This document shows, piece by piece, positions 24,289 to 64,000 of a DNA stretch of 64,000 nt (the first letter of the stretch is position 1; each line of letters opens with the position of its first letter). The DNA comes from Sphyrna mokarran (taxonomy: Eukaryota). The position numbers and the translations under genes are program-made. The stretch lies in the NCBI GenBank assembly GCA_024679065.1, contig JAGIQG010000005.1, positions 85,498,001 to 85,562,000 on the forward strand, read 5' to 3'. Under the pieces are notes generated by a model that saw only the letters and a list, made by a program, of their open reading frames with translations, ran no database searches and was not told the origin of the DNA.

Positions 24289-24880
24289 TGATTTGATTTG
24301 ATTTATTATTGTCACATGTATAAGTGAAAAATATTGTTTTTTGCATGCTATACAAAGCATACTGTACATAGAAAATGAAAGGAGTGCAGAATGCAGTGTT
24401 ACAGTCATTGCTAGGGTGTAGAGAAAGATTAACTTAATGCAAGATAGATCCATTCAGAAATCTGATGGCCAACAGGGGAGAAGCTTGAGGCAGTTCGTGC
24501 ATGACCTCAGACTTCTGTATTTCTTTCCCGATGGAAGAAGGTGGAAGAAAATATGTCCAGGTGAGTGGGGCCCTTAATTATGCTGGCCGCTTTTCTGAGG
24601 CAGCGGCAAGAGTCAACAGTCAATGGATGGGAGGCTGGTTTGTGAGATGGATCGACTACATTCACAACCTTTTGTAGTTTCACGCAGTTTTGGGCAGAGC
24701 AGAAGCCGTACCAAGCTCAATACAACCAGAAAGAATGCTTTTTATGGTGCATCTGTTAAAAGCTGGTGAGAGTTGTAGCTGACATGCCAAATTTCCTTAG
24801 TCTTCCGAGAAAGTAGAAGTATCAATGTGGGGGACCAGGACAGGTTGTTGGTGATCTGGACATATAAAAACTCTAAACTC
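24289..24880 (-). mobile_element. Rex1/Babar-type LINE 3' end
   Basis: gatttgatttgatttattattgtcaca tail plus a body homologous to 27860-28330 and 34136-34740. Confidence 0.8.
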
Positions 24881-25970
24881 TTTCAGTGAGCATTCTTGAG
24901 CGTTATGGGCCTGTTTTGCCTGCAGAAAGAAATGGAAATAAGTCTTAAAAATTTTACTGTCTTATCTGACACACATTTACCTTTTGAAGACTATCCGAGG
25001 TGACATTTTCCATTATAATAATTATAACAAAGTCAGAACCATCTCCAAGGTAACTGCATTTTATGACATTTCAGAACATTAACAAAGACTGCATTGTACC
25101 TTATCAAGATTACATTTGATACCTCAGGAACTGAATAGATAGAGCTACCATTTCTGCTCCTTAAATTTTACAGTCAGGAGTTGGGATTTTAAGTTTTAAC
25201 TATTTTATATATTAAGATGCATACATACCCTGATGGAATGTAATAAATCATTAAGTTTCTTTTAGATTTTCCACACCCTGCAATATTAACTTTGTTCTGT
25301 TCAACCTCATTCAATAGGATATCCAACTCATTTTCTGTGACATATGACTTCTTGAGTTGCTATATTCTAAATAAAAATGAATGAATATTTTAAGCAGGAC
25401 ACACATAAAGTTAAATAATAACTGTGCATAGTTAGTAATATTACAATTCAAAATAAAGAAAAATGTAAATATTGAATAATCAGTCATAAAAATAAATTAA
25501 TTGAGTAAATAATAAAAGCATTAATTACTTAAAAAATAACAAAAAAATGAAAAGATTTCAAAATACCTTTATAATAGTGCGTTTTCTGTGTTCACTTTCA
25601 AACTGTTCTGTCAAAAGATGCACTCAATGGACATTCCCAAACTAGGAGCATCATAAATGGCATGACTACACTTCTCATGCTGTGGCTTGTGGGCTGTCTT
25701 GCTGCAGGTTCCAAGTTGCTTCAGATTGGGATTTGGATCGCCATTTTTCAATGAACATAAGTATGTGTTGAAGTCTTCTATTTTCAGGGGGCCATGGCTT
25801 TCTGTCTTTATTTGGAAGTTAAATCCCCTGATTTTAGAAGTCCACGCTGGCTTTTTCTAATCAATCCACATTTTTCAATATGACTACTAATTCTATGCAG
25901 AATAAATATTCCTTGAAGTTTCACTGCCACTAAGTTAAACTGCATCTTTCTGAACAAGAGCATATTGGTT

Positions 25971-28430
25971 TAATTTGATTTATTATTGTCACGTATTAAT
26001 ATACAGTGCACTATACAAAGTATACCTTACGTAGGGAAGGAAAAGAGAGAAAGCAAAATGTAGTGTTACATAGAACATTACAGCACAGAACAGGCCCTTC
26101 GGCCTTCGATGTTGCGCTGACCAATATGAAAAGCAATGCCCCTCCAAACTAAACCATTCCCTTCTCTTCCATATACTTATCAACTAACCTCTTAAACGCC
26201 ACCAAACTTGGCGCATCTACAACCGCTGCAGGCAGGGCATTCGACTCCCGAACCACCCTTTGGGTAAAGAACCTGCCCTGATATCCGTCCTATAACTATC
26301 ACCCCTTAATTTAAAGCTGTGTCCCCTCGTGCTAGCTTTCTCCATCCTAGGAAAAAGGCTATCACTGTCCACCCTATCTAAACCTCTAATCATCTTATAT
26401 GTTTCGATAAGGTCCCCTCTTAGCCGCCTCCTTTCTAACGAAAACAACCTCAAATCCCTCAGCCTCTCTTCATAAGACCTGCCCTCCATACCAGGCAACA
26501 TCCTGGTAAACCTCCTCTGTACCCTCTCCAATGCCTCCACATCTTTCTTATAATGTGGGGACCAGAACTGCACACAATACTCCAAGTGCGTCCGCACTAG
26601 AGTTTTGTACAGTTGCAACATGACGTTGCGGCTCCGAAATTCAATCCCTCTACCAATAAAAGCCAAGACTCCATATGCCTTCCTAACAACCTTCTCGACC
26701 TGACTGCCTACTTTCAGGGATCTATGCACATACACACCAAGATCCCTCTGTTCATCTAGACTACTAAGAATCCTACCATTTGCCCTATACTCTACACATT
26801 TATTATTTCTGCCATAGTGCATTACCTCACACTTTTCCACATTAAACTCCATTTGCCACCTCTCGGCCCAGCTCTGCAACTTGTCCAAGTCCCTCTGCAA
26901 ACTATAACACCCCTCTTCACTATCACCACTCCACCGACTTTAGTGTCATCTGCAAATTTACTAATCCATCCTTCAATACCCTCATCCAGATCATTTATAA
27001 AAATTACAAAGAGCAGGGGCCCCAAAACAGACCCCTGAGGTACACCACTAGTCACCGAACTCCAAGATGAATATCTCCCATCTACCACCACCCTCTGTCT
27101 TCTATCTGCTAGCCAATTCCTAACCCAATTAGCTAAATCACCCTCTATCCCATACATCTGCATTTTCTGCAGAAGTCTTCCATGGGCCACCTTATCAAAC
27201 GCCTTACTAAAGTCCATATATACCACATCAACCGCCTTACCCCCATCCACCTCCCTAGTCACTTTTTCAAAAAACTCAATGAGGTTAGTAAGGCACGACC
27301 TACCCTTCACAAAACCATGCTGACTATCTCCAATCAATTCATTACTCTCTAAATAATTATAAATCCTATCCCTAATTATTCTCTCCAATACTTTGCCCAC
27401 AACAGAAGTAAGACTCACTGGCCTATAATTCCCTGGAAGGTCTCTCTTCCCCTTCTTGAACAATGGGACCACATTCGCTATCCTCCAGTCCTCCGGAACC
27501 ACACCCGTAACCAACGACGACCTGAAGATCAGAGCCAGAGGCTCTGCAATCTCCTCTCTTGCCTCCCAGAGAATCCTAGGGTAAATCCCGTCCGGCCCAG
27601 GGGACTTATCCAACTTCAAACCCTCGAGAATATCTAGCACATCCTCCCTATCTACTTCGATACCTTCCAGTTTGCTACCCTGTACCTCAGTGTTCCCCAT
27701 AACTACATTTACATCCCCCTGCGTGAATACCGAAGAGAAATATTTATTCAGTACCTCTCCAATCTCCTCAGGCTCCACGCGCAACTTCCCACTGCTGTCT
27801 ATACAGCAGTGTCTATGTTACAGTCTATGTTACAGTCTATGTTTACAGTCTATGTTACAGTCATAGCTAGGGTGCAGATAAAGATCAGCTTAATATGAGG
27901 TAGGTCCACTCAAAAGTCTAATTGCAGTAGGGAAGAAGAAGTTGTTTTTGAATCGGTTGGTACGTGATCTCAGAATTTTGTATCTTTTTCCCGATGGAAG
28001 AAGGTGGAACAGAGTATTTGCTTGGGGTCCTTGATTATGCTGGCTGCTTTTCTGAGGCAGCGGGAAGTGAACATAGTGTTAATGGATAGAAAGCTGATTT
28101 GTGTGATGGACTGGGCTACATTCACGATCCTTTCTAGTTTCTTGTGGTCTTGGAGAGAACTAGAGCCGTATCAAACTGTGATACAACCAGAAAAAATGCT
28201 TTCAATGGTACATTTGTAGAAGTTGGAGAGAGTTGTAGTGGACTTGCCAAATTTACTTAGTCTTCTGAGAAAGTTGAGGTATTGGTGGGCTTTCTTAACT
28301 ATAGTGTTTGCATGGAGGGACCAGGGATCAGGACAAATCCTGCACTATACTTCCTGAAGTCAATGATAATCTCATTTGGTTTGTTGACATTGAGGAAGAG
28401 ATTATGATCGTCGATCCAGTTCACCAGATT
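25971..28430 (-). mobile_element. Rex1/Babar-type LINE 3' part, split by a young CR1
   Basis: Tail at 25971; the host motif atgtagtgttaca|gtcatagctaggg is broken at about 26070 and resumes at about 27860. Confidence 0.8.
26069..27800 (-). mobile_element. Young 5'-truncated CR1 LINE; RT nearly intact (ORFs 26822-27784 and 26217-26900 joined by a 1-bp frameshift)
   Basis: [62 protein letters not shown]; frameshift at about 26925 (VV-DSEEG); catagaacattacag tail. Confidence 0.97.
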
Positions 28431-28569
28431 GTAAACCAGAAGCAAAGTATACGTTTACTACAGCAGCCATCCTCCCTGTCTTGATGTGTAAATTTCCTTT
28501 TAGTCCCCTTTTCCTCCTTTTACTACTTATATGCCAACAGAAAACTTTGGAATCACCTTTATATTGACT

Positions 28570-28810
28570 GTCAATTGACAATGAACAATTTTCTCATTGT
28601 TCACTTCTCTCATGGGATTTTTCATCTTCTTTATTATCACCACATGATAATGGTGTTTGGTTTGGTGGATTCTGTCATTGTGGCATCATCTGGTTCTTCG
28701 CTGTGGCCCTTGTTCCTCTTCTGTGGTCTGATGTTGGGACTCCTTATTTGTGCATACTGTCACTTCAGGGCTTCAATGGTTTTTACTTGTGATGGTACAT
28801 CCTTCCTCTT
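28570..28810 (-). mobile_element. Possible Gypsy integrase fragment
   Basis: Reverse strand has KTIEALK and a terminal ...CGDNKED/IIKK-like end; weak. Confidence 0.3.
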
Positions 28811-29889
28811 GTTCACATGATATCCAAGCAGCCCAACTGTATGATGCCAGGAGGATAACTAGCCCCTGAAGTGACAAGGGCCTCATTCTTATTTTGTCAC
28901 TCTCCAGAGATGAGCTTCTGCAACTTTTAAATCCATGCAGCAAATTCTTTTAGCCAGTTGAAAGCTTTCACCTGAACTTCAAAAGATTTCTCTGCTTTCT
29001 AACTCACCTCCATTTTCATTCATATATTCCCTCACTGGGTTTAATTCCTGAATACTGGCTTCTTCATGCAAAGCTCTATTCACTTGCCAATAAGAAGACT
29101 TTAACTAGGTACAGATCTATTTTAAGGCTCATATGCTTTCCAGCACCACTAAAAATACGTGGTTCTGGGAATGGCTGTTCATTAGCCATTTTTTTCTCTC
29201 AATCCTCTTTAATTCCATTTTGGGACAGGAAAATTCAACCTGGCTTTTCCTAAGCTAATTCATTGAGAACTCATCAGCTAATGTCATCAAGAAGATGACC
29301 AAACAACTGAAAATGTCTGCTCAGACTGAGAAGTATAGAAGTACTTTACGATGTATGATGTTAATTTTCTGAGATTGCATTTCCAGTAAGAAACCACAAT
29401 TACTGGGTGTATACCTCAAATATTTTGTCATGAAGTATGTATTTTAATATTTAAGTTAAAGATTAAATTGAAGATCAATTTGCATTACCAGCCTGAATTT
29501 CTGATATACTCCACTAAATAAAGTGAGAATACCTGAACACTGCCATTATATTTCCTTAAATGATCTAATTCCATCAGTTTCGTTACCTGTAGTGTTACAT
29601 TTTTAGTACAGACTGGTAAGTTGTAAAAATAAATCAAAATCCCCAGTTATTAACTGGAGAGATTACACAGCAATATTTTACATTTTAAAGGAAAAAGATT
29701 TTCCTGACAAAAAAAGCTGTTAAGTTTGCTGTATACCCATAACGGTGAAAGTTTCATTAACTCAACAATATAATCCACTATGGTATTACTTGACAATAAT
29801 TTCCTTTTAGTGTAATTTCATTCTTAGTTGTGCTTTAACTCTAGGTGTGAAACAAAAGGTCAAAGGTGTCTGTGAAAACCCCCCATCAG

Positions 29890-30560
29890 CCGCTCTGTGG
29901 AAGATCTAAGTGCTCATCTGGGTACTTCTTCTGGGCCAGTCATTTTCTATGGGTTGACTTTCAAGAACCTAATCTGACATCTGTGATACTGGTTTGGCTG
30001 AGGCTTCCTGGATGGATGATATCTTCTTGCTGAAAATGTGTGTATAGAATGCATTGTTGCTGGTGATTCTATATGCCTTCACTTTGTAGCCTATTATGTT
30101 GTGTAGATCTTGCCATAATTGGTAGGTATTCCTGTGGCTAGCATGGGACTTTAGCTTGGTCTGTTATTGTCTCTTGGCATCTTTGATGATTGTCCAAAAA
30201 GCATATCTTGATTTCGTGTATAGGTCAGGATCACTCCACTCGAATGCCTCAGGTCTGGGCTTCAGTAAGCAATAGATGTCACAGTTTACATTTGCTTCTT
30301 TGGCACGCAGTCTTCTATGCCCTTACTAATGAAGTCTGTTACTGTAATGGTGTACTCATTCAGGTTGGTCACTGAGTTCGTAAATATTGACCAATCAGCT
30401 GACTCAAAGTAGTTCTGTAGGAAATCAACCGATGTCTCATATCAACACTGCATGACTTCATCGGGAGTTCTTACTTGTAAATTGGGAGCAGAACCATAGC
30501 CTGTGGTCTGATTTGCCAAAGTGTGGACGGTCAATAGGCATGTTTGATATTTGTGTAACA
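29890..30560 (-). mobile_element. Rex1/Babar LINE internal fragment
   Basis: Homologous to 35500-36250; reverse strand reads NLNEYTITVTDFISKGIEDCVPK. Confidence 0.7.
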
Positions 30561-31864
30561 GTGGCATTTGAGCCTCTAGTGGGACTGGAGACATGGTAGT
30601 ATTTTGTAAGGATAACATATCATACAGAATCTATCCCAGTAAGTACACAGTCCACATAAATCAATAAGTGTAGTCAGGAATGCTACACCCTAAAATCAAG
30701 TTGACAAATGATACTCAAAACAACAGCTATGGATTTTTCATCAAATCCCCCCAGACACTTCTCACACTGTGAGCAAATAGACTTTCACATGAGGATGTCA
30801 TTTCTCTACTTTCAAAGAACATGCCTTGCAATCTTTTCCCCCAAAAAATGCTCCCTCTCGGATGTCTTCATCAAAGATCCATCTCCAGGGTTCTACGCTC
30901 TCCTTCCGGTATTCAGCTGCAATGGATTGTCAGATGCATTCAAGCTGCTATGTAATCTCTCAATAGTCAGCATACAAATACAACATCATTGCTTTACGGG
31001 GTTTATCAAGGTCACCAAACTATGGGTTACCCTGATCCTCATATTTCTCTCAAGATGACTTTAAATGTGCTTCCTGCGGCAGTCCCTTTAATTCAGAACT
31101 CTTTCTCTGCTCTTTACTGTCACTGAACAGAATTTTTGTTTTTAAAGATTTCTGTTCTTCATTCCTTTGACTTCAGTGTTCTGGGTACTGTTCTGTCCCA
31201 TCACCTTGTTTCTAAAGAACTTCCTGTTCTTTAGCATGCAACCTGCACTTTGCACTATTTCTTCATGTTTCCCCTGTTTTAGCAGTTTCTAATATGCTTT
31301 CTTCTAGGTTAACTGGCTCCAACTAATTCAAGACTCTTGCTGTGTCTCAGTGTGGCCCCGCTTGTTATGCAAGAATGTATTTTTCTTTAAATATTATTTA
31401 TTATATTTTTGTACAGCCCTCATTACAAAGCAAGCATCTAAACCAATACATAGACTTGCAGGTAGGCATTTTTTAAATGTCAAATTAAAACTGAAGTTTA
31501 AACCCTTTCTTTGCACACAAATATAGAAAAATTATGCATACTTAACTAGCGTTATTTCTGATAACTACAAATCAAGCACATATTACTTAAAACTCCATTT
31601 CAACACAATTATATCATTTACAAAAATATTGCAATTCAAGACATCTTTGCACTGGGTGAAGCAGGCTACTATTTCCAGATTTCTTGCTTGTTTTCTGCAA
31701 CCTGACTACAGTGGCAACACTGGCAGATGCACCGAATCTTAGAGAAATGGTTATACAGTCACAACAGCTTATTTTCTGGTATTTTTGAGCACTGGACAGG
31801 TAAATCTGGAATTAATTAACTTGATGTAAAACAGATTGTTCAAACAGCTTTATTTAAATATAAA

Positions 31865-32410
31865 CTTACAGAAAAGACGTAGCCCATTTGGCTGCTTGGT
31901 ATATCCTGCTATTCAATAACATCATGGCTTATCTGTTTTTACTGAGTTCCTTATTCAATGTGGAATAAGCTTTGAGTTCCTTACCTAATAAAAAATATGT
32001 ACCTCCGCCTTAAAAATACTCAGGTACACTGCATTCACTGCCTTCTGCAGTGGGGGAGCTTCAAAGTCCCATAACCTTCAGAGAAAAAACTTTCCCTAAT
32101 TTCTATTCCATAAGGGCATCTCCTATTTTTGAAATGAAGCCTCCCAAGTTTTTGATTCATGCACAAAAGGAAATGTCTACCTTGTCAATACTATTGAGGA
32201 TCATACATATCTCAATCCAGTCACTCTTCAATCTTCTAAACACTAATGGAAACAAGCCTAGCCTTTCCAACCTATCCTCAGGAAATGTATTCCAGATATG
32301 AATCAAATCAAACTCCCTTCTGACCTTCTTCTAAAACACCGACAATTTTCTTTAAAATATGGAGACCAATATTGCACGAAGTATTAGAGATGCGCTCTCA
32401 CTAATTACAA
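31865..32410 (-). mobile_element. Old CR1 3' end
   Basis: cctgctattcaataacatcatggct tail and ggagaccaatattgcacgaagtatt (EYxVQxWSP remnant). Confidence 0.65.
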
Positions 32411-32429
32411 ATATTCATCACACTGAAAT

Positions 32430-33290
32430 TGAGAGTCTTTTCTTTGTCAATATCTACACTGCCCTTCGTAAGACGAGCATTTTTTTCTGGTTGGATGTCC
32501 TTTAAGATCCTGACTGCAAAAATATCCAAAGACTATGAGCATCTGATGTTTTCCATAGGGCATATGATATTGATGTTTGTCTTCATCCTCACATTATATC
32601 ACATTCACAATATGGAAAACCTGATGAGTTTTCAGTTGAAGATCTTTCAGCTTTACAGCTTAACTTCGACTGTATTTTTGCTCGTCTCATGTAGATGCTC
32701 ACTTACTTGGATCTCTGTTGCATTCTTATTGCTGACAATAAGCAGAACATACTTCTTTTTGGTTATATCTTCCCTCTGGTGCCATCTCCAGAACCAGATT
32801 TCCTGCACAGGTGAGCCCGATGTCCTTTGATACAGTCTAGCTTAGAAAAATCTCGCAATGCAGACAGTGCTGCAGGCCACACTGCCCACATGACTTGCTT
32901 GGTTTTGACATTCTGGTTCAGCACCAATACTGATAGCTGCGTCTAATGAGAATGTAGGTGTCATTTTGCAGCTACAATTGCTTTTCGTTTTCTGCTATCT
33001 TTTTACAAGAGTTTACATCAGGATTTTTACTTTCCACTAAAAGATATTTTCGAAAGAGTCATATGGCATTGATTCTACAATCAGTTCCATTATTTTTTAG
33101 ATTGATCCTCTTTTGAGACATCATTATTCTTGTTGCAGCATTTTTTGACAAATTGATTAACTCATGGGCTGTTGTTTTTAAGCCAACAACTATAAAAGTG
33201 TATTCTGATGTTTACCCTTACCTAATTCTGATTCTCTAGCATTACAACATGACAGGATCCTTTTGATCTTCCTCAGACAATTCTTAAGTA
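32430..33290 (-). mobile_element. Deletion-compressed Gypsy gag/pol fragments
   Basis: Reverse strand SEEDQKDP...VRVNIRIH, IMELIVES, zinc-knuckle remnants CGQCG and DCIKGHRAHLCR. Confidence 0.6.
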
Positions 33291-33733
33291 TTGACTCTTC
33301 CTTAGGCAAGTCTCATTATTGATTATTCAAATCCTTGTTTCTAATGGACCTCTTTATTTACACTACTTCTTAATCTGTTTAATTATGGATAGATTTAATA
33401 AGTACAGCTCCATTCTCCACTGCACACAATAATTAATACATATTCTCATAAAGTTCCTGTTCCAATGAATCATAACATCCATACTATGATATTCATTCCT
33501 CTCGTAATGAAGGGTAGCACTCCAACAGCCTTCTTGGTTACATGCTGCACCTACATACTAACGTTTTGTGACTCATGCACAATATCCACATCCCTTTGCG
33601 CTTCGACATTCTGTAGTTGTTCTCAATTTAAATAATGCTCTGCTTTTTTATCTTTTGCCATTATGAACAACTTCACACTTTGCTACATGACCCTCCACCA
33701 GCAAAACTTTTGCCCACTCATTCAACACCATCT

Positions 33734-34100
33734 GGGGTGGCATGATTGCACAGTGAATAGCACTGCTGTCTCACAATGCCAGGGACCTAGGTTAAATTCC
33801 TGGCTTGGGTCAGTGTCTGGATGGAGTCTGCATGTTCTCCCCATATCTGCTTGGGTTTCCTTTGGGTGTTCTGATTTCCTCCCACAACAACTATAAAAGC
33901 TGTATTCTGATAGTTATCCTGACCTAATTCCGATTGTCCAGCATTACAACTGGATAGGATGCTTTTGATCTTCCTCAGACGTAAGGGTTAGGTGGATTTT
34001 CCATCAATGTACTCAAACAAGCACCAGAGTGTGGCAACTAGGGGATTTTCACAATAACTTAATTGCGGTGTCAATGTAAGCCTATTTGTGACAATAATTA
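33734..34100 (+). mobile_element. V-SINE/HE1-type SINE with a foreign insert of about 95 bp
   Basis: tRNA-like head ggtggcatgattgcacagtg...actgctgtctcaca, V-domain ggagtctgcatgttctcccc, tail as in 1-113; insert at about 33884-33980. Confidence 0.8.
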
Positions 34101-34135
34101 CAAAAAAAACTCTGCATGTCAACTTCACAACATTC

Positions 34136-36600
34136 TTGATTTATTACTGTCACATGTATTAGTATACAGTGAAAAGTATTGTTTGCTTGCTACACAAAGC
34201 ATACTGTACTTAGGGAAGGAAAGGAGAGAATGTAGGATGTAATGTTACAGTCATAGCAAGGTTGCAGAGAAATATCAAATTAATGCGAAGTAGGTCCATT
34301 AAAATGTCTGATGGCAGCAGGCAAGAAGCTGTTTTTGAGTCAGTTGGTATGTGGTCTCAGATTTTTGTATCTTTTTCCCAATGGAAGAAGTTGGAAGACA
34401 GAATGTCCGGGATATGTGTGGTCCTTGATAATGTTGGCTGCTTTTTCGGAGCAGCAGGAAGTGTAGATGGTATCAATGGATGGTTTGAGTAATGGACCGG
34501 GTTTAATTCACAACCCTTTGTAGTTTCTTGCAGTCCTTGAACTGAAGTAGGAATCATACCAAGCTGTGATATGGTGCATCTGTAAAAATTGGTAAGAGAT
34601 GTTGCAGGCATGCCAAATTTCTTTCATTTCCTGAGAAAGTAGAGGCATCGATGGGTTTCTTAACTACAGTGTCTGCGTGGGGGGACCAGAACAAGTCGTT
34701 GGTGATTTGGACATCTAAAAACTTGAAACTCTCGACCATTTCTACTTCATCCCCATTAATGTAGACAAGGGCACGCCCTCTACTTAGCTTCCTGAAGTCG
34801 ATGATATTCCCTTCATTTTGTCGACATTGAGGAAGAGATTATTCTCATTGTACCAGTACACCAAATTCTCTATTTCTTTCCTGTATTCTGTCTCATCATT
34901 GTTTGAGATCCATCCCACAACAGTGGCATCATCAGCAAACTCCAAAATCGAGTTGGACGGGAATTTGGCCATACAGTCAAAGGTGAATAAGGAGTATAGT
35001 AGGGGTTGAGGACACAGCCTTGTGGAGCATCAGTGTCAAGAATAATCATGGAGGAGGTGTTGTTGTCTATTCTTGCTGACTGCAGTCTGTGGGTTTGGAA
35101 GTCTAGGATCCAGTTGCAGGGAGGATCTGAGCCTCAGGCCACAAAGTTTGGAGATGACTGTCATGAGACTAACAATGTTAAAGGCTGAGCTGTAGATTAT
35201 GAATAGGAGTCTGACATATATGTCTTTGTTATCTTGGTGTTCCAGGGTTGAGTGTAGAGTCAGGGCTGGCATCTGTTATAGACTTATTGAGGCAATAAGT
35301 GAACTATAGTGGATCCAGTCAGTCCAGTAGAGTAGGAATTGAGTTGTGCCATGACAGACTTTCAGTGCCACAGCCACCAGACAACAATATTCAGGCACGC
35401 TGCCAGGCTTTTCTTTGGTATTGGGATCATGGTCATTTTTTTGAAGCAGTTAAGGACCTCAGATTGGTGTGAATACTCCTGTTAGATGGCCCACACAGGA
35501 CCTGAGTGCTCATCTGGGTGCTCTATCTTGGTCAGTTGCTTTCCATGGGTTGACTTTGAGAAGGCTGCTCCAGCATCGACAAGGGTGACCTCAGATAATT
35601 TGTCAGAGGCATCCGGGATGAAGGGCATGCTCATGCTGACCTCTTGCTCAAAACGGACATTGAATGTTTCGAGCTCAATGGGGAGGGTGCATTGGAGCTG
35701 GTGATTTTACCTATTTCATCTTGTAGCCTATTATATCTTGCAGACTGTGCCAAAATTGGCAAGAGTCCATGTGGATACTTTAAGATTCTAGCTTGGTCCG
35801 TACTGCTGTCTGGCATCTATGATGAGTCTCCATAGATCATATCTGGCTTTCTCGAATAGGTTAGGGTTGTCTGACACGAATGCCTCAGACCTTGACTTCA
35901 GCAAGTTGCGGGATCCTTGTTCATCTATGGTTTCCAGTTGGGAAATACATGGCTTTGTTTTGTTGGCACAGTCTTCTAAACATTTACAAATGAAGTTAGT
36001 TACTATAGTGGCATATCTGTCCAGGTTGGTCGCAGAGTTTTTAAATGCTGACCAGTCTACTGACTGTATGCAGTCTCATAGGAGATCATCTGATTTCTCA
36101 GACCAACACTGCATGGTTTTCTTTGATGATTTCTCTCATTTCAGTTTTTGCTTGTAAGCCAGGAGCAGGTGCACAAACTTGTAGTCTGAAGTGCAGGCAG
36201 ACAATAGAGCGGCAGGCATGTTTGATATTTGTACACTTGTGGTCTAAGATGTTTGGGCCTCTGGTGGAACAAGAGGTGCATTGGTGGAAAGCTCTTGAGC
36301 TTGGCCTGATTAAAGTCCCTAGCGATGATGAACAAAGCCTTGGGACGTTTCATCTCAAGGCTATTTATGGTGGTGTATATTTCATCCAGCATGGTCTTCA
36401 TGCCTGGGTTGGAAACTGCTGTCACAATAACAGAGATGAACTCTCGTGGAAGGTAGTGGGGGCAGCATTTTAGCATCAGGTATTCTAGGTCTGGAAAGCA
36501 GAAACTCATCCGTCTATGCGTGTTTAGGCAACATGAAGTGCTGATTAGGAGGTAGACCCCACCTATCCGAGGCCATTGTGTGGTCCATTTGGTGGATTGA
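34136..36600 (-). mobile_element. Long decayed Rex1/Babar LINE (APE + RT)
   Basis: CFPDLEYLMLKCCPHYLPREF (APE), YVRLLF...[24 protein letters not shown]. Confidence 0.9.
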
Positions 36601-41740: not shown

Positions 41741-41754
41741 TTGCAGCAACAACT

Positions 41755-41990
41755 CCCCAACAACTTTTGTTTTCACATCCCATGAGGCCAGTTGTCCATG
41801 TGCAATTACATGGCCAAGGAACGTGACCTGGGCTTTTTCCAAACTCACTCTTAGTCAGGTTTACCTCCTGAAGTCGAACAAATACTTCCATCAGATGATT
41901 CAAAGTTTCTTTCCATGTCTGATTAAAAATCACCAGACTGTCTACGTATGCCGCACAATTGGGTAATCCTGAAATAACTCTGTTGATTAA
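41755..41990 (-). mobile_element. Gypsy RT fragment
   Basis: Reverse strand LPNCAAYVDSLVIFNQTWKETLNHLMEVFVRLQEVNLTKSEFGK (YxDD region). Confidence 0.75.
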
Positions 41991-42239
41991 TCAGAGAGCT
42001 GCCAAAATCATGTTTTATGTTCAAAAAAAACCCTCAAAATTTACTAACATCACAAAGTGTTAATGTTGATTGTGCAAATCCTTGTTTCTAATGGATCTCT
42101 TTAGTCATACCACTTCTTAATCAGTTTAATTATGGATAAATTTACTGAGCACAGCTCTATTCTACACTGCACAGTATTTGGTGTACAGTCTCACAAAACC
42201 CTCTTTTCCTGAATTGCAACATCCGTGCCATTATGTTCA

Positions 42240-53345: not shown

Positions 53346-54001
53346 AGAACATAGAACATTACAGCGCAGAACAGGCCCTTCGGCCTTCGATGTTGCACCG
53401 ACCATTATAAAAAGCAATGACCCTCCAAACTAAACCATTCCCTTCTCTTCCATAAACTTATCAACTAACCTCTTAAACGACACCAAACTTGGCACATCTA
53501 CAACTGCCGCAGGCAGGGCATTCCACTCCCTAACCACCCTCTGGGTAAAGAACCTACCCTGATATCCGTCCTATAACTATCACCCCTTAATTTAAAGCTA
53601 TGTCCCCTCGTGCTAGCTTTCTCCATCCTAGGAAAAAAGGCTATCACTGTCCACCCTATCAAAACCTCTAATCATCTTATATGTTTCAATAAGGTCTCCT
53701 CTTAGCCGCCTTCTTTCTAACAAAAACAACCTCAAATCCCTCAGCCTCTCTTCATAAGACCTGCCCTCCATACCATGCAACATCCTGGTAAACCTCCTCT
53801 GTACCCTCTCCAATGCCTCCACATCTTTCTTATAATGTGGGGACCAGAACTGCACACAATACTCCAAGTGCGGCCGCACTAGAGTTTTGTACAGTTGCAA
53901 CATGACGTTGCGGCTCCGAAATTCAATCCCCCTACCAATAAAAGCTAAGACTCCGTATGCCTTCCTAACAACCTTATCGACTTGACTGCCTACTTTCAGG
54001 G
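53346..54001 (-). mobile_element. Young CR1 3' fragment, same subfamily as 26069-27800
   Basis: Near-identical to 26069-26720; ORF LYKTLVRPHLEYCVQFWSP...LERRRLRGDL; target-site duplication atatt (53341-53345 and 54002-54006). Confidence 0.95.
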
Positions 54002-55489
54002 ATATTGGTGAGTAATAATTGAAATCCATATCTTTCACCTATCTTATGATTTGTATTCTGCCATTTGTGTTATTCCACAAAGATTTCAAGCCCCACACTG
54101 GAACCTCTGATAAAGCCAATGGTATGAGGTGCCCTCCAAATCCTGACAGCATGAATTCTTCAAGGAACAGGAGGTTTATCTGAGTTAGTAAATGCCTGAA
54201 GAAGCAATGGTGCCTGTGGTGTCATCTTTCACTGATTTCCTTATGTGGCTACATCTCCTGTCTCTTTTGGTCACGCCATACTTCATCGATTTAGCAGTTC
54301 TTCAGGAAAATCTCTGACTTTCTAGGGTAGGACTCTGCACAAGCCTGCTGTTCCTCCCGGATCCATGCCAGTGATGAGGCCTTCCGCTCATTCGAAATAT
54401 AGCTGGGAAAAAGGCAGTGTTCTTTGTATCGTGTATTCACACTCCTTCAGTCTGTGAACAAATAGATTGAAAACATCACTGAATCTTCCTCATAATTGCT
54501 GTTCTCTCCAAGCCAGTATCAAGCCAATTGTCTACCAACAGTGTAGACATGGCATTCCAAGGCAATCTTTTGCAGGTGAACTACAATCTGATGATCCATT
54601 GTCGCCTCCAATGAGATTCGGATCTTGAATCTACAACTTAGCTGACTCTACTTCACCATGTCTTGAGCAAATAATTAGTTGGATGTCCTTAAAATCATGC
54701 CAAAACAATGATTCTGAAATCTTCTTACGTGCTTTGAGTCATTCCTATATTATTTTCAACCTGGTTTTTCAAACTGCACCATCATTTAGTAAAGTGCAAA
54801 GATGTTGCTGCTAACCTTTGCAAGTCTAACAGCTTCAAACACACACAAAATTCATCACATCTGTCCAGTACCACTGTCTCCTAGTTTACCTCTTTCCTGT
54901 TACACTCCAAACTTCACCCATTACACTTGGCAGCATCATTGCTCACAGTGACATCTGTTGGGCCCCTTTCTCATTAATGTTAATGTATCATAGTTTGAGT
55001 GAGCTTCACTTTAATGAGGCCAGTTTTAATTTCCAAGATATCTTCCTAAATGAGATCAGACAACACCCTACTTCTTGTCAAGACTACTCAACTGCTGATT
55101 TAACAAATTCAAATGCCTCGCCATTCTGATTATGTGCTCTGTCTAAAACACGATGCTATCCAAGATATATAAGCCATGGACAGTCCACTAAATATGCCCA
55201 TTAAGTCTGGTATAATCGCAGCAGTTTATTAAACAGGCAATCAGCAGCACTACCTCATTTGCAAACAATTTCTTCTTACAACGCCTTGGCCAGACTCCAT
55301 GAGAAACTTTCTCTCTGGTCCTGGTGGCCGTTCCAGACAATGTCCAAACAATTTCACATGTTTACAAATTAAGTCATTGCCCCACTCTCCAGTCCTTACT
55401 CTGTCTACCATTTCCACTCTGCAACTTGTGCTTTTCCTCTTACTCTTGCCTCTCTTTCACCTTTCATATATTGGGCTGGTAAGCTAAAA

Positions 55490-55830
55490 GTAGATTTAGT
55501 TTTTGAAGACGCAGTACCAATTTCCGTTGCCTGGCTTCTGTTCATGGTTAATATCGTTCCATCGGGTGTTGTGACTTCATATGATCTGGATTCATTGTAT
55601 ACTTTGTATACTTCTGTTAAAGAATGAATGATTCCAAGCATTGTCTTACTTGTTGACTATGTATTTTGTTGCCTTGAATGTTGGTTATATGTCATCTTAA
55701 TCCTCCCAGGTTTTCCGGATGTTCTATTCAATGGCAGACAAATGGGTCAGGCAGTGGCTTGATACCACTGTTCTAATGTGACTTCCGAACATGAGTTCTG
55801 CTAATGCGTAAAAAACCAAATGTGAAAGTG
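55490..55830 (-). pseudogene. Representative Gypsy integrase C-terminal fragment of the array unit (present in all 10 units)
   Basis: Unit consensus APAEIMFRSHIRTVLPSHHL...GRMKMVYDQH...EVSKVCxESRSYEVxTPNGxxLxxNRSQxRE, cf. the Mag/K02A2.6-type motif SPAELxxGRxIRTxLP...PRSYxVxTxxGxxLRRNR. Confidence 0.85.
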
Positions 55831-56049
55831 TTTCCAAACAAGCTCAGATATCAATGTGGAGAAGAAACCATTGCTTCTAAGAATTAGATTGTATTTAACC
55901 ACCGCAGGAATTTTGTAGCCATCAGGTTTTCTAGACATGAATGTCATATTGGAGATATGCAATAGGTTCTTCATCCAGCTTAGCTAAGTCCTCACCATCT
56001 TCAGACCCATTTGCTTTAACATTCTCCTTGGCCAATTAACATATTGCTC

Positions 56050-56330
56050 TTCCATTTCTTCCTCAGGTCAACACCTCTCACATTTGCAGCGCAACGTTGT
56101 GCAGAATAAAGGAAAACAATGATGATGTGAGAATCAGTGTTCAGTACTGCAGAGCTCTTCATGAAAGTACAAATATCAGTAATATATCATCAGGAGGCGT
56201 ATACTTGAGACTGCATCACCATGAAGGATTTGTGACAGTTTGCTGAGTACCCCGCACAAATATGCAGGATCTGCTTTCTGGGAACAAAAGTAAGCTGGCA
56301 GTTCAAAAAGTGAAATCCATTATGATTTTT
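56050..56330 (-). pseudogene. Representative Harbinger transposase fragment of the array unit (also about 44805-45030, 48900-49200, 52985-53260, 60220-60490, 62435-62720)
   Basis: NGFHFLNCQL..RKQILHICAGYSANCHKSFMVMQSQV (cf. RKGFHSLNVQL..ILHVCARYPGSCHDSFILRQS), then LQY*PE..HIII.CCTLRNL..EMEE (cf. ALQYSPERVSxIIxxCCALHN); GDKGYP segment deleted. Confidence 0.85.
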
Positions 56331-59319
56331 AGACCTTTGAGGAAGCTGAGATTGCTGCAAGCCCACTACCTCTGACAGACTTGCTTGTGTCATTTCTATG
56401 GAATTGAACATGTTGGTAAGCGTTTTTGAAAACAGTATCTTTCACCTGTGTTATGATCCGTTATTTTGCAAACTCCCAAGTGGAGGCCCAAAAAGACCTA
56501 CTGAAAATCAAGTCCTGTGCTGAATCTTCTTACATTTGGTTCCCTTCAAATCGCCTATACCACCCCCCCCCCAATGTCGCACCAAATTTCATTGATTTAG
56601 CAAATTCTTTGGTTGAATCTGCAACGTTTTTGTGCTCTGCTCAGGCAAATGTTCCTCTTGGATTGATGCCAACTGGTTACAGACCCTTCTTTATATTCAG
56701 AATACAGCTGTGAAAAAGGCAGTGTTCCATACATCCTATATTCATACCCCTCCTTTCTGTCTGTGAACAAATATATTGGAGACATCACCGAATCTTTCAC
56801 GTAACTGCTCTTCTTACCATGGCAATGTTAAGTCACAATGTAGACATGGCATCCTGAGCCAATCCTTTACAGGTGAACTACAATATAGAGGTCCACAGAT
56901 GGGTCTGACAATAAGCATTTGGATCTTGAAACTAGGTGACAGCTGACACTGTTTCTTCATGTTTTGAGCAAATAATTAATCGAATCTCCCTATGATCAGC
57001 CAAAAATGGTGACCCTTAAATGCTCTTACATGCCTTGAGGCTACTCCCATATTATTATTTTCAAACTTGTTTTCAAACTAAACCATCACTACACCATCTT
57101 GCTGCTAATTTTTCCAAGTGTAACCAACAGCTTCAAACACATGACAAATTCATCACATCTGTCCAAAGAGTCATTGTCTCCAAATTCGTATTGCTCGTTA
57201 ATTTCTAGTTTTCATTCATTACCCATGGCATCATCATTGCTTGCACTGACAATTCTATTTGTTGCTTCTGGTTCCCATTAATGTTGATGCACCAGGCTTT
57301 TTGTTGACCTTAGCCTTATTTTATTCAGGTTAGCTTTAATTTCAAAAATACCCATGTGAATTCTCTGCACTCTGATTCACCCAAATAAGATCAAACAATA
57401 CCCTACTTTTCACCAAGACTAATCAATTGCCAATTTAACAAATTCAAATGCTCGCCATTCTAGTGAAGGTATGCTGCCCTCATGTAAGCCATGGGCTGCC
57501 CTCATGTAAGCCAAGGGCAGCCCTCTAAATACCCCATACAATATGGTACACAGTCTACTAAACAAGCAGATAGCAACACTGTTTGCAAATGAGGCAATCT
57601 CATCTTACGATTCCTTTTCCAGACACAATTGTAACTTTACTTACTGGCCCTGATGCCCTCACCAGATCATGTCCAGTCAACATCGCATGTTTGCAACTTA
57701 AGATGTTACTCCACTCCGCAGTCCTGAATCAAGTACATCTCACCCTGTTATCTGTGCCCTTCCAGTTTCAACCTTCTGACTATGTATGGAATGGTAAATG
57801 AAACACAGATTCAGTTTCTAAAGGTGCAGTTCCAAATTCACTTGCCTTGTTCTGTGTGTGCTTAACATCATTCCATTGTGTGTACTACTTCATATGATCT
57901 GGAATCACTGCATGCTTTGGATATTTCTGTTAAACAACTAATGATTCCAAGCTATTGTCTTACTTGCAGACTATGTATTTCATCACCTTCCCTTTTGGTT
58001 GTACACTTTCATCATCCTTCCATATTTTCTCAAAGTTCTCTTCTATGTCAGAGAAATGGGACAGGTGGTGGCTTGGCAACACTGTCCTAATCTGACTTCT
58101 GAACATGATTTCTGCTGGTGTGTCAAAGACCAAGTGTAAAAGTGTGTCTCTTCAAGGTCAAATGTCAATAGAGAATAAACCATTGCTTGTTAAGAGTTAG
58201 TCTGCATTCAACCTCCATAAGAATTCGGTAGCCATCAGATTTTCCTGGCATGTCTGCCATATTAACATTTGTGTTATTCTGCAAAGGTTCCAAGTGGAAG
58301 CGTGGAAAATCTTCTGACAACCCAGTCCTGTGCCGGAACATTTTATGAAGTCACAGACATGTGGTTGCCTCCAAATTCTGGTGGCACAGGCTTTTCAAAG
58401 GACAGGAGTTAACAAATGCCTAGGCAAGCAATGGTGCTTGTGGCATCTTCTTTCACTCATTTCCATATATAGACTGCATCTTCCATACTCCCTTGGTTGT
58501 GCCACACTCCATTGATTTACCAATTCTTTGGGAGAATCTGTGACTTCTGGGGATTCTGTTCAGGTCTACTACTCAGGCAAATTGGATCTGTGATAATTGG
58601 TGACAGACTCTTCTTCTCATTCCAAATACAGCTGGGAAAAAGGCAATGTTCCTTGCATCCTGTATTCACACTCTTCATTGGTCTGTCGAGAAACAGATTA
58701 GAGTCATCATTGAAACTTCCTTATGACTGCTCTTCTCTCCAAGTCAGTGTCAAACAATGGTGTGCCACAATATAGACATGGCATCTCGAAGCACCCTTTG
58801 CAGATGAACTACAATCTGGAGGTCTGTGGTCGGCTCCGAGAATGGGCATTTGGCTCTTGAAACTAGAACTCAGCTGACACTAATTCTCCATGTCTTGAGC
58901 CACTAATTTAATTGGCTAACATTAAGATCATCCAAAAATTGTGACCATGAAATCCACTTACATGCATTGAGACCACTCCCATATCATTAAGTTCAAGCTT
59001 CCTTTTCAAACTGCGTTATCACTCAGTAAAGAGCAAAGGTATTGCTGCTAACTTTTCAAAGTGAAACCAATAGCTTCAAACAACAAATTCATCACATCTG
59101 TCCAAACAGTCACTGCCTCAGAATTCACATCCTTCCCGTTTATTTCCCGTCACCACGTATTAGCTCTGGTACCATCATTGCTCCCATTGATATTTCTATT
59201 TGTTGCCCCTTCCAGAGTGCCATTGATGTTTATGCATCATGTCCTTTGTTGATCTAAGCCTCCTTTTATTAAAACGTGTTTTAATTTCCAAGATACCCCC
59301 TCCCCCCATGCAAACTATC

Positions 59320-59524
59320 CTTGGAGAGAAGAGCAGTCATAAGGAAGTTTCAATGATGACTCTAATCTGTTTCTCGACAGACCAATGAAGAGTGTGAATA
59401 CAGGATGCAAGGAACATTGCCCTTTTCTCAGCTGTATTTGGAATGAGAAGAACAGCCTGTCACCAATTATCACGGATCCAATTCGCCTGAGTAGTAGACC
59501 TGAACAGAGTCCCCAGAAGTCACA
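59320..59524 (+). repeat. 205-bp inverted copy of 58539-58743
   Basis: cttggagagaagagcagtcataagg...ccccagaagtcaca is the reverse complement of tgtgacttctgggg...ctcttctctccaag; absent at the equivalent site of the paralog unit (about 52260). Confidence 0.95.
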
Positions 59525-62500
59525 TTCGAACCTTACCCTCTTTCTTCTGGCCCTTGTGCCCGCCAGACCATGTACAGCTAACATCAAATTTGCAACATAA
59601 TTCCTTGCACCACTCCCCAGTCTTGATTTTGTCTAGCATCTCCATTCTTCTACTTGTGCCCTTCCTCCCACTCCTGCCTATGTTTCACTCTTCTCACACT
59701 GGACTGGGACATGAAATGTAGATTCAATTTTTGAAGACGTAGTACCAAATTGTCTTGTCTGACTTCTGTTTGTGCTTAATGTCATTCCATTGTGTGTTGC
59801 TACTTCATACGATCCGGTCTCATTGCACACTTTGGATACTTCTGTGAAAGTACGAATGATTTCAAGCTGTTGTCTTACTTGCAATTTATGTAGTTCATTG
59901 CCTTGCATGCTTCATCCTCCATGTTTTCTTCAAGCATCCTTCTATGGCAGAGAAATGGGACAGGTGATGGCTTGACAATACTGACCTAATGTGGCTTTGG
60001 AACATAACTTCTGCTTGTGCATCAAAGACCAAGTGTAAAAGTGTATCCTTTTAAGGTAACATGCTGATGTGGAGAATGAACCATTGTTTGTAACAGTATT
60101 TAACCTCTGCAGGTTAAAACTTTGATAACATCATGTATTTTTCATCTGGATCAGCTAAGTCCTCACCATCTTCAAATCCATTTGCTTCAATGTTCTCTTC
60201 GTCAAATTAACATTCTACTCCTCCATTTCTCTCTCAAGTCAACATCTACAGCACAAGGTTGCACACAGGGAACAATAAAACAATGACGATGTGAGATACT
60301 CTGAGGTGAGAACTACTTCGTCACCAGTCCAAATATCAATATTACATCATCAGGAGCCAAGCACTTGACATTGCATAAGCATAAAAGATGCGTGAGAATT
60401 CCCTGAGTACCTCGCACAAATATGCGAGTCGTGCTTTCCGGGATCAAAAGTAAGCCAGCACTTCCGAAAGTGAAATCCATTTCAATTATTGAACTTGTCG
60501 GGAATCTGAGATTGCTGCAAGCCCAACACCTCTGTCAGTCTGGCTTGCATCATTTATGTGGAATTGAACATATTGGTGAGTAATTATTGAAGTCCACATC
60601 TTTCACCTGTCTTACAATTTGTATTCTGCCATTTGTGTTATTCCACAAAGATTTCAAGCTCCGTGCCGGAACCTCTGATAAGGCCAATGGCATGAGGTGC
60701 CCTCAAATCCTGGCGGCATGAACTCTGATTTGCTAAGACTCTGCACAGGGCTGCTGCTCCTCCCGGATCCATGCCAGTGACAGGGCCATCTGCTCATTCG
60801 AAATATAGCTGGGAAAAAGGCAGTGTTCTTTGTATCCTGTATTCACACTCCTTCAGTCTGTGAACAAATAGATTGAAAACATCACTGAATCTTCCTCATA
60901 ACTGCTGTTCTCTCCAAGCCAGTAGAAAGCCAATAGTCTGCCCACAGTGTAGATATGGCATTCCGAGGAATCCTTTGCAGGTGAACTACAATCTGATGAT
61001 ACACTGTCGGCTCCAACAATGAGATTCGGACACTGAAACTAGAACTTAGCTAACAGTACTTCACCATGTCTTGAGCAAATAATTAATTGGATGTCCTTAA
61101 AATCATGCCAAAATGATGATTCTGAAATCCTCTTATGTACCTTGAGCCACTCCCATATCATTATTTTCAAACTGGTTTTTCAAACTGCACCATCACTTAG
61201 TAAAGTGCAAAGATGTCACTGCGAACCTTTGCAAGTCTAACAGTTTCAAACACACACAAAATTCATCACATCTGCCCAGTCCCACTGTCTCCTAGTTTAC
61301 GGACTTCCTGTTATGCTCCAATCTCCATCCATTCTACTTGGCAGCATCATTGCTCACACCGACATTTCCATTTGTGGGACCTCTGATCCCATGCATGTAA
61401 ATGTATCAAGCCTCACTCTACTGAGGCCAGTTTTAATTTCCAAGATATCTCCCTAAATGGGATCAGACAACACCCTACTTCTTGTCAAAACTACTCAACT
61501 GCTGATTTAACAAATTCAAATGCCTCGCCATTCCGATTAAGGTACTCTGTCCAAGGTATATAAGCCATGGACAGTCCACTAAATACACTCATGAAGTCTG
61601 GTATAATCGCAGCACAGTTTATTAAACAGGCAATCAGCAGCATTACCTCATTTGCAAACAATTTCTTCTCACAATGCCTTGACCAGACTCCACGGAGAAA
61701 CTTTCCCTCTGGTCCTGGTGGCCCTGCCAGACCATGTCCAGCCAATTTCACATGTTTACAAATTAAGTCATTGCCCCACTCTCCAGTCCTTACTCTGTCC
61801 ACTATTACCACCCTGCAACTTGTGCTTTTCCTTTTACACCTGCCTGGGTTTCACCCTTACTATATTGGGCTAGTAAGCTAAAAGTAGATTTAGTTTTTGA
61901 AGATGCAGTATCTATATCCCTCGGCTGGCATGGTTAGCATTGGTCCATTGAGTGTTGCGACTTCATATGATCTGGATTCATCGCATATTTTGCATACTTC
62001 TGTTAAAGAATGAATGATTCCAAGCATTGTCTTACTTGTTGATGATGCATTTTGTTGCCTTGAATGTTGGTTGTATGTCATCTTAATCCTCCCATGTTTT
62101 CCAGAAGTTCTCTTCAATGTCAGACAAATGGGTCAGGTGGTGGCTTGATACCACCATTCTAATGAGGCTTCTGAACACGAGTTCTGCTAACGCGCCAAAG
62201 ACCAATTGTAAAAGTGTTTCCAAACAAGCTCAAAAATCAAAGTGGAAAAGAAACCATTGCTTCTAAGAACGAGCCTGTATTTAACCACCGCAGGAATTTT
62301 GTAGCCATCAGGTTTCCCAGCCATGAATGTCATATTGGAGACATGCAATACGTTTTTCATCCAGCTTAGCTAAGTCCTCACAATCTTCAGACTCATTTGC
62401 TTTAACAGTCTCCTCGGCCAAATAACATCTCGCTCTTCCATTTCTCCCTCAGGTCAACACCTCTCACATTTGCAGCACAAGGTTGCGCAGGATAAAGGAA

Positions 62501-64000
62501 AACAATGATGGTGAGAATCTCTGTGTTCAGTACTGCAGAGCTCTTCATGAGAATACAAATATCAAGAAAACATCATCAGGAGGCATGTTCTTGAGACTGC
62601 ATCACCATTAAGGATCTGTGACAGCTCGCTGAGTACCCAGCACAAACATGCAGGATCTGCTTTCTGAGATTAAAAGTAAGCTCGCAGTTCAAAAGTGAAA
62701 TAAATCCATTATGATATTTGAACCTGTGAGGAAGCTGAGATGCAAGCCCACCACCTCTGACAGACTTGCTTGTGTCATTTCTGTGGAACTGAACACGTTG
62801 GTAAGCGTTTTTGAAAACAGTATCTTTCTCCTGTCCTGTGATCTGTGTTATTTCATAATGGTCCCAAGTGGAGATCTGAAAAGACATGCTGACAATCAAG
62901 TCCTGTGCTAGAACCTCTTACAAAGCCACTGGCATTTAGTTCCTTCAAATCATCCACATGCCCCTAGGTTGCACCACATTTCATTGATTTAGCAATTTTT
63001 TGGTTGAATCTGCAACTTTCTTGTGCTCTGCTCAGGCAAATGTTCCTCTTGGATTGATGCCAACTGGTGACAGACCTTTCCTTATATTCAGAATACAGCT
63101 GGGAAAAAGGCGGAGTTCCATATATCCTATATTCACATACCTCTTCTGTCCATGAACAATTAGATTGGAGACTTTGCTGGAACATTATGACTATTCTTCC
63201 CTCCAAGACAGTGTCAAGCCAACAGTCTGCCAACAGTCTTGACGTGGCATCCCAAGGCAATCCTTTGCAGGTGAACTACAATCTGAAGGTCTGTGGCCGG
63301 CTCTGAGAATGAGCATTTGGCCCTTGAAACTAGAACTCAACTGACACTGGTTCTCCAAGTCGTGAGCAAAGAATTTATTGGACCTCCCTAAGTTCATCCC
63401 AAAATGGTAATTCTGAAATCCTTTTATAATGTGTTGAGACCACTCCCATATCATTATTTTCAAGCTTGATTTTCAAGTTGTATTATCACTCACTGAAGGG
63501 CAAAAAGATGTTGCTGCTAACCTTCCCAAGTGTAACAGCTTCAAATACACACCAAATTCATCACACCTGGCCACATAGTAACTGCCACTTCATTCACATC
63601 CTGTTAATTTCCAGCATCCATCCATTACCCTTGGCACCATCATTGCTCACACTGACATTTCCATTTGTTGCACCCTTGTTTCCATTAACATTGATGCACC
63701 ATGCCTTTTGTTGATCTGAGTCTTTCATTGAAGGTAAATTTAATTTCTAAGATACCCTCCAAATTTACTGCACTCTAACCCACACAATGAGATCAGCCAA
63801 TATCGTATTCCTGGCCAAGACTATTCAACTGCCGATTTAACAACTTCAAATGTCCTGCCATTCTGGTTAAGGTGCCCTGTCCAAACAACACACCAGTGCC
63901 CAAGACATGCCAATGATGGTCAGCCCACAAAATACTTCCATAGAGTGTGACATAATCGCTGCACAATTTATTAAGCAGGCAATCAGCAGCACTGCCTCAT

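What the first reader, a model, noticed from the sequence alone, without database searches (positions are those of the whole stretch)
24289..64000. Strong one-strand bias of diverse transposon fragments: candidate uni-strand piRNA cluster
Seen: from 24 kb on, Rex (4 pieces), CR1 (7 pieces), Gypsy gag/pol/int pieces and all array Gypsy and Harbinger fragments are on the minus strand. The plus-strand exceptions I found are only one SINE, one Rex tail and a tiny CR1 piece at about 42780. In contrast, 1-24 kb is mixed. The plus strand looks pyrimidine/T-rich (not counted). Known: uni-strand piRNA clusters such as Drosophila flamenco accumulate antisense fragments of many families. Inference: a plus-strand long transcript would be antisense to several transposon superfamilies, and the tandem array would amplify and diversify guides against Gypsy and Harbinger.
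Basis: inference. Interest (0 to 1): 0.75.

Follow-up and report, generated by a model that had tools for sequence, protein, structure and literature searches.

The report
One-way transposon block before shark Tdrd15
A 60-kb stretch of probable shark DNA, just upstream of a likely germline small-RNA gene, is built from old jumping-gene scraps that mostly face one way and were then copied many times in place; it likely lies in a long opposite-strand RNA, but whether that RNA makes silencing piRNAs is untested.

Summary
The strand bias is real but smaller than it looks. In 24.2-64 kb, 29 of 32 merged fragments are on the minus strand. The plus strand is 55.1% pyrimidine, against 49.0-51.6% in 17 control windows. 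The block runs on to about 86 kb. Over half of it is a locus-unique array of ~17 units (43.0-79.9 kb), mostly 72-77% alike, each repeating one Gypsy and one Harbinger relic. Older direct duplicates surround it. Collapsed by hand, 14 independent elements are minus and 2-4 plus; 0.5-4.6% of control runs match that. Old and younger insertions both lean minus, which suggests a lasting plus-strand transcript (inferred). The block lies between APOB and a multi-Tudor gene (likely TDRD15), whose CpG-rich, promoter-like module occurs in four copies at the block's right edge. No host exon or left-hand promoter was found, and RNA could not be tested. The array's Gypsy part would guide poorly: 11 of 880 26-mers match outside copies, against 329 of 342 for a young CR1. 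I put a true piRNA cluster at about 0.3. This scan noted similar one-way blocks in other genomes.

The parts
24289..24885 (-). Rex1/Babar LINE 3' fragment (independent insertion)
   Evidence: no closer to the other local Rex copies than to copies elsewhere
25962..26070 (-). Rex 3' tail, abutting the young CR1
26068..27802 (-). Young CR1, 97% identical to other genomic copies; best potential source of antisense guides
   Evidence: 329 of 342 26-mers within 3 mismatches of L088
27851..28430 (-). Rex 3' fragment; counted as one element with 29844-30613
28438..28577 (-). Small old CR1 fragment
29844..30613 (-). Rex internal fragment
30634..31737 (-). Gypsy internal relic; duplicates at 39798-40753 and, beyond the window, 81952-83004
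   Evidence: orientation taken from Gypsy hits flanking the homologues in L228 and L241: inferred
31875..33725 (-). Old CR1 in two pieces; duplicates at 41274-42749 and, beyond the window, 83577-85183
33737..34111 (+). SINE (V-SINE type, name recalled); plus-strand exception
34135..36611 (-). Rex1/Babar, 2.5 kb
36841..39145 (-). Gypsy pol relic (RNase H, integrase zinc finger, stretch before RT), interrupted by an old CR1 at 38353-38740; duplicated beyond the window at 79.5-81.2 kb; shares sequence with the array unit and is its inferred source
41751..41993 (-). Gypsy integrase fragment of another family, inside the old CR1
42779..42835 (+). Tiny CR1 piece; likely the inverted 5' part of the adjacent minus-strand CR1
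43030..64000 (-). Locus-unique tandem array, ~2.2-kb units, ~17 units, running on beyond the window to 79.9 kb; each unit holds a Gypsy integrase end, a Harbinger transposase relic and unassigned sequence. Further right, outside the window, lie four promoter-like module copies (L003-L004) and the multi-Tudor ORF (L005:112-6231)
   Evidence: for the parts outside the window
46117..46292 (+). Rex 3' tail inserted in the array; plus-strand exception
53345..54007 (-). Young CR1 3' end inserted in the array (97% to other copies)
59320..59524 (+). Recent local inversion of an array piece (95-97% to 51486-51690 and 58539-58743)

Best explanation
A 62-kb block (24.2-86 kb) between APOB and a multi-Tudor gene is made of transposon relics that mostly face the minus strand and were multiplied by old local duplications; it likely lies inside a long, old plus-strand non-coding transcript, in which sense-facing insertions would have been weeded out. 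Step 1 (inferred): a plus-strand transcription unit, either a lncRNA or a far 5' extension of the Tudor gene, favoured antisense Gypsy, CR1 and Harbinger pieces. Step 2 (shown): this core was duplicated in direct orientation, and one ~2.2-kb Gypsy-plus-Harbinger piece was amplified ~17 times, leaving units 14-17% from their majority, with a few later recopyings. Step 3 (shown): younger Rex and CR1 insertions again lie mostly on the minus strand. The base skew largely follows from reading purine-rich element strands backwards (inferred). piRNA production is possible but not required.
For: Independent count 14 minus vs 2-4 plus (binomial p 0.004-0.03), matched by 2 of 401 and 17 of 373 control runs. 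The bias spans two epochs: old core 6 of 6, other insertions 8 of 10; the two local Rex copies dated are 11-13% from their family majority, younger than the array at 14-17%, and the young CR1s are 3% from other copies. Duplications are direct and confined to the locus. Array conservation is flat and deletions are not in threes (1 bp 80, 2 bp 39, 3 bp 17), so it is not a hidden coding gene. Young insertions are scarce in the array: 1 at 85% identity or more, 6.7 expected, Poisson P 0.009. CR1 sense strands in controls are 59.8% purine, which fits the skew. Antisense bias of LINE and LTR elements within genes is established (PMC3088655, PMC2911107; passages).
Against: No transcript is shown. No CpG island or copy of the promoter module lies near the left edge at 24-26 kb. 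AATAAA is not depleted on the plus strand (36 plus vs 44 minus), although its lower A content predicts fewer. Substitution asymmetry in the array gives no stable direction: A>G/T>C 0.77-0.96 and C>T/G>A 1.03-1.29 depending on filters. A flank window reaches 25 plus vs 9 minus (164-224 kb), and 4 of 14 control regions hold a 14-of-18 run. The passages read in PMC2911107 report intronic antisense bias in chicken and zebrafish for LTR elements and do not list it for their LINEs.
Confidence: 0.4

Rival explanations
1. A true uni-strand piRNA cluster: a plus-strand germline precursor over 24-86 kb is cut into piRNAs antisense to CR1, Rex, Gypsy and Harbinger; today the young CR1 pieces would be the useful guides.
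For: Four superfamilies lie on one strand over two epochs, in a sharply bounded 60-kb block. The plus strand is T-rich. The block ends at promoter-like copies of a likely piRNA-pathway gene. Productive mammalian clusters are rich in antisense transposons (PMC11615739, passages), most axolotl clusters are uni-strand, and elephant shark has the pathway genes (PMC7618676, passages). 329 of 342 26-mers of the young CR1 match another genomic copy.
Against: No small RNA or precursor is shown. It is not a trap for young elements. Recognised transposon content (13.7 of 60 kb) is within the control range. No plus-strand gene was found upstream to read through from: APOB points away. The array's Gypsy part matches outside copies poorly (11 of 880 26-mers), and no outside DNA match was found for its Harbinger part among the loci fetched.
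Confidence: 0.28
2. Chance plus duplication with no transcription: a handful of relics happened to face the same way, unequal crossing-over copied them into a complex satellite, and a scan of many windows picked the tail of the distribution.
For: About 37 of 62 kb is one amplified unit holding two elements. The collapsed bias is reached by 0.5-4.6% of control runs, and the genome holds about 46,000 windows of this size. Units decay neutrally. No PAS depletion, no stable substitution asymmetry and no left promoter.
Against: Insertions outside the old core are also 8 of 10 minus (weak alone: 60 of 485 control runs). The non-array part alone is more skewed than 182 of 183 control windows. Young insertions are scarce.
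Confidence: 0.25
3. Leftward transcription: the extra promoter-like copies at 87-91 kb fire away from the Tudor gene, so the block is read on the minus strand, with the elements in sense.
For: The skew ends at about 86 kb, next to the first module copy, and two extra copies keep 15-16 CpGs against 4 in the decayed one. One filter set shows A>G excess on the minus strand (ratio 0.77, p 0.002).
Against: Sense-facing LINE and LTR pieces are the disfavoured state in transcribed DNA (PMC3088655). The A>G signal fades when related units are collapsed (0.82-0.96, not significant). The flanks of the module were duplicated too, so the boundary may only mark two duplication blocks.
Confidence: 0.07

Closest known systems
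Drosophila flamenco and flam-like unistrand piRNA clusters (PMC10643416; passages read)
   Same: Transposon fragments mostly on one strand over a long, gene-free block.
   Different: Those clusters are 227-1,085 kb in the species listed, LTR-rich, with a bias driven by Gypsy alone and piRNA reads shown for several. This block is 62 kb, mixes LINE, LTR and DNA elements, holds only decayed Gypsy, owes over half its length to one tandem unit, and has no RNA evidence.
Mammalian pre-pachytene clusters downstream of genes, piC-DoG (PMC11615739; passages read)
   Same: Antisense LINE and LTR fragments beside a gene; tens of kb long.
   Different: piC-DoGs lie behind a same-strand gene and are made by read-through. 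This block lies in front of the Tudor gene, and the gene on its other side (APOB) points away.
Ordinary antisense bias of transposons inside genes (PMC3088655, PMC2911107; passages read)
   Same: Antisense excess of LINE and LTR elements in a transcribed unit.
   Different: No host exon was found here, and the raw bias (95% by length) is far above the control windows because of duplication.
Transposon-derived complex satellites (recalled, no call)
   Same: Head-to-tail kb-sized units made of transposon pieces.
   Different: Single locus, about 17 units, hardly homogenised, and embedded in a wider one-way block.

Membership tests
Uni-strand piRNA cluster | Dense 24-32-nt PIWI-bound reads from one strand, with 1U and phasing | not testable with these tools
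   No reads could be laid on the locus (see Tried and rejected).
Uni-strand piRNA cluster | Long single-strand precursor with its own or a borrowed promoter | tested here: inconclusive
   No CpG island or module copy at 24-26 kb; no stable substitution asymmetry; no PAS depletion.
Uni-strand piRNA cluster | Transposon fragments of several families on one strand beyond background | tested here: met
   14 vs 2-4 independent elements; 2 of 401 and 17 of 373 control runs match. Modest strength.
flamenco-like cluster | LTR/Gypsy-rich, with strand bias driven by Gypsy | tested here: not met
   3 of the 14 independent minus elements are Gypsy; 9 are LINEs, 1 a SINE, 1 Harbinger (hand count).
flamenco-like cluster | Traps currently active elements | tested here: inconclusive
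   Two young CR1 copies (97%), both minus, but young insertions are scarce overall.
piC-DoG read-through cluster | Lies downstream of a same-strand gene | tested here: not met
   The nearest genes found are APOB on the minus strand to the left and the Tudor gene to the right. Small or non-coding genes and the 5' end of APOB were not mapped.
Intron of a plus-strand protein-coding gene | Coding exons on both sides on the plus strand | tested here: not met
   0 of 103 plus-strand ORFs of 72 aa or more in 24.2-104 kb pass a Pfam cut-off (one weak DUF7479 hit). Non-coding 5' exons and short exons are not excluded.
Hidden repeat-exon gene | Conserved, frame-keeping blocks in each unit | tested here: not met
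   Flat conservation along the unit; deletions not enriched for multiples of three.
TDRD15 (neighbouring gene) | Multi-Tudor ORF, mostly one exon, next to APOB | tested here: inconclusive
   6 Tudor stretches, best solved relatives TDRD1 and Tudor, APOB neighbour. The synteny is recalled, and the paralog TDRD6 was not excluded by a tree or search.

The most novel reading that the evidence does not exclude
An ancient uni-strand piRNA source locus of a cartilaginous fish, placed directly in front of a piRNA-pathway Tudor gene whose promoter module has been quadruplicated. It grew by internal tandem amplification of captured Gypsy and Harbinger pieces and still takes up the young CR1 family in antisense.
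Probability: 0.28. Interest if true: 0.65.

Novelty: new member of a known kind. Interest (0 to 1): 0.4.

Why it matters
My searches (listings only) showed no paper mapping piRNA clusters in a shark or ray, and none placing one at APOB-TDRD15; subscription journals are mostly not covered. If small RNAs confirm it, this would be a defined source locus in an early-branching jawed vertebrate. Its diverged units allow unique read mapping, and it would test whether clusters grow by internal duplication and sit beside pathway genes. If not, it is a measured warning: duplication turns about 15 elements into more than 30 apparent votes.

Tried and rejected
RNA: no RNA holder was listed for window 54001-63900; this is no evidence either way, and no reads could be laid. 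Protein searches with two window ORFs found nothing. My first Gypsy library missed the array's Gypsy part, and Pfam on 12 read-through frames of two units gave nothing useful; it was identified only through homologues elsewhere. I considered that the whole unit was one Harbinger element and rejected it. A hidden repeat-exon gene was rejected. Rfam: 0 matches in 104 kb. SINE scarcity (1 vs 7-41 per 60 kb) was dropped as evidence because the SINEs are as old as or older than the array. The first A>G/T>C asymmetry did not survive collapsing of related units. The masked Gypsy library was contaminated by other elements and was filtered before counting. Penelope pieces were left out of run tests because their orientation is ambiguous. 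The 2.4-kb insert at 74.17-76.6 kb and the family at 39301-39447 could not be oriented and are not counted. The 5' end of APOB was not located. The Tudor protein is not in the exact look-up. Earlier notes near the locus or on look-alikes: none. The interval could not be compared with other sharks, and the same-strand Gypsy group on C838 was not examined further.
Full report
Setting. The window is G000:C1104:85498001-85562000 of a 2.77-Gb genome, probably a shark: the closest Rex proteins are from sharks and a skate, and earlier notes on this genome say shark. I fetched 200 kb on each side and twelve 60-kb control windows. Coordinates above 64000 or below 1 extend the window's numbering (offsets checked). 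To the left, a 2607-aa minus-strand frame at about -99 to -92 kb is APOB (E 0 to PDB 9bd1). To the right, a 2040-aa plus-strand ORF from 104112 has six Tudor stretches. I call it likely TDRD15 from recalled APOB-TDRD15 synteny. Hamster TDRD15 is testis-restricted and binds PIWI proteins (PMC12548254, passages).

Observation. I built a library from this genome's own elements and public Rex and Gypsy proteins, and ran it identically on the locus and the controls. In 24.2-64 kb, 29 of 32 merged fragments are minus (11,999 vs 635 bp); 1-24.2 kb is 6 minus, 7 plus. By length the twelve controls are 0.51-0.67 one-sided, and the most biased flank window is 0.78. Some library seeds came from the window itself (SINE and Rex pieces), which lifts their scores there but not their strand. 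The plus strand is 55.1% pyrimidine vs 49.0-51.6% in 17 control windows, and the cumulative skew falls steadily from about 26 to 86 kb.

Anatomy. From 43.0 to 79.9 kb lies an array of about 17 units of roughly 2.2 kb, found nowhere else by whole-genome search. Most pairs are 72-77% identical, with a few at 80-92%; each unit is 14-17% from the majority. Conservation is flat, and deletions are not in threes. The unit holds a Harbinger transposase relic and the integrase end of a Gypsy, both minus. The Gypsy call rests on locus L244, where the matching stretch follows an RNase H domain on the same strand. The same Gypsy also survives at 36.8-39.1 kb. That stretch, 36.6-42.7 kb, is an old direct duplicate of 79.5-85.2 kb, and 30.6-33.7 kb is a third partial copy. 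From 85.7 to 100 kb a second set of direct duplicates carries four copies of a 400-bp module (86895-87303, 90052-90424, 91119-91505, 98051-98454) found only here (4 of 4 candidates). Three copies keep 15-21 CpGs and one has 4. The last copy is followed by GC boxes and a predicted donor at 98840, and is the likely promoter of the Tudor gene, whose predicted acceptor ends at 104106 (inferred from sequence).

How strong is the bias once copies are collapsed? By hand, 24.2-86 kb holds 14 independent minus elements: four Rex, five CR1, three Gypsy, one Harbinger, one SINE. The three longer Rex copies are no closer to each other than to copies elsewhere. Plus elements are a SINE and a Rex tail, or four if the tiny CR1 piece (likely a 5' inversion) and the local inversion are counted. 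Two elements could not be oriented, and Penelope pieces were left out. Binomial p is 0.004 to 0.03; 2 of 401 and 17 of 373 overlapping control runs are as one-sided, in 1 and 4 of 14 regions. The six elements of the old duplicated core are all minus, and 8 of 10 others are, including Rex copies younger than the array and two CR1 copies at 97% identity.

Tests for a transcript. No plus-strand coding exon was found (0 of 103 ORFs over a Pfam cut-off) and no Rfam family. There is no CpG island or module copy at the left edge. AATAAA counts are 36 plus and 44 minus, so there is no depletion. Substitution asymmetry among units depends on the filter and points both ways. Young insertions are scarce in the array (1 vs 6.7 expected), which fits constraint or closed chromatin but not a trap. 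The skew is expected from reversed purine-rich elements, and most unassigned pieces are skewed the same way.

Would the array make useful guides? Only 11 of 880 26-mers from its Gypsy part come within three mismatches of the three closest outside copies I fetched, while 329 of 342 from the young CR1 match another copy. The genome search scores only the best candidates, so closer Gypsy copies may exist. If piRNAs are made here, the CR1 pieces would matter now and the array would be a relic.

Verdict. Most likely (0.4): a long-lived plus-strand non-coding unit with ordinary antisense selection, magnified by duplication. A true uni-strand piRNA cluster gets 0.28, chance plus duplication 0.25, and leftward transcription 0.07. 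It resembles flamenco (PMC10643416) and mammalian piC-DoGs (PMC11615739) in layout, but fails their Gypsy-driven and downstream-of-gene features, and the defining small RNAs could not be tested. I read passages, not whole texts, of six papers and no supplements; the sense/antisense counts in the supplement of PMC2911107 may bear on the intron baseline.

Noticed in passing
L003:2895-3303, L003:6052-6424, L003:7119-7505, L004:4051-4454 (extended coordinates 86895-98454): Four copies of a promoter-like module in front of the Tudor gene; three keep CpG islands, one has decayed. It carries reversed CCAAT boxes and sites that look like E2F, NRF1 and RFX motifs (names recalled). They may be alternative or divergent promoters.
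   Followed up: partly
L005:112-6231: Intact 2040-aa multi-Tudor ORF, likely TDRD15, next to APOB in a probable shark; the exact sequence is not in the protein collection.
   Followed up: partly
G000:C838:36.71-36.91 Mb (L060, L226, L247): Several Gypsy pol copies, all on the plus strand, within 200 kb; may be another array or one-way block.
   Followed up: no
L002:171-2605 (extended coordinates 74171-76605): A 2.4-kb dispersed repeat inserted in the array, with no long ORF and no class assigned.
   Followed up: partly
L011-L016 (extended coordinates 164000-224000): Flank with 25 plus vs 9 minus fragments; may mark an unannotated minus-strand transcription unit.
   Followed up: no
L130-L133, L135, L136: Endogenous retrovirus-like elements with long open pol- and env-like frames at several places in the genome (class judged by eye); used only as search queries.
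   Followed up: no
L041-L047: Seven intact Harbinger-type transposase ORFs of 387-660 aa, possibly domesticated genes.
   Followed up: no
G000:C1548:5.8-6.0 Mb and 10.45-10.48 Mb: A cluster of several vitellogenin-domain genes.
   Followed up: no
L288 (G000:C1104:9806682-9810136): A 248-aa intronless frame that reads like an RRM protein (by eye), possibly a retrocopy.
   Followed up: no
window 21686-23014: Plus-strand Gypsy pol fragment just left of the biased block, with many genomic copies.
   Followed up: partly
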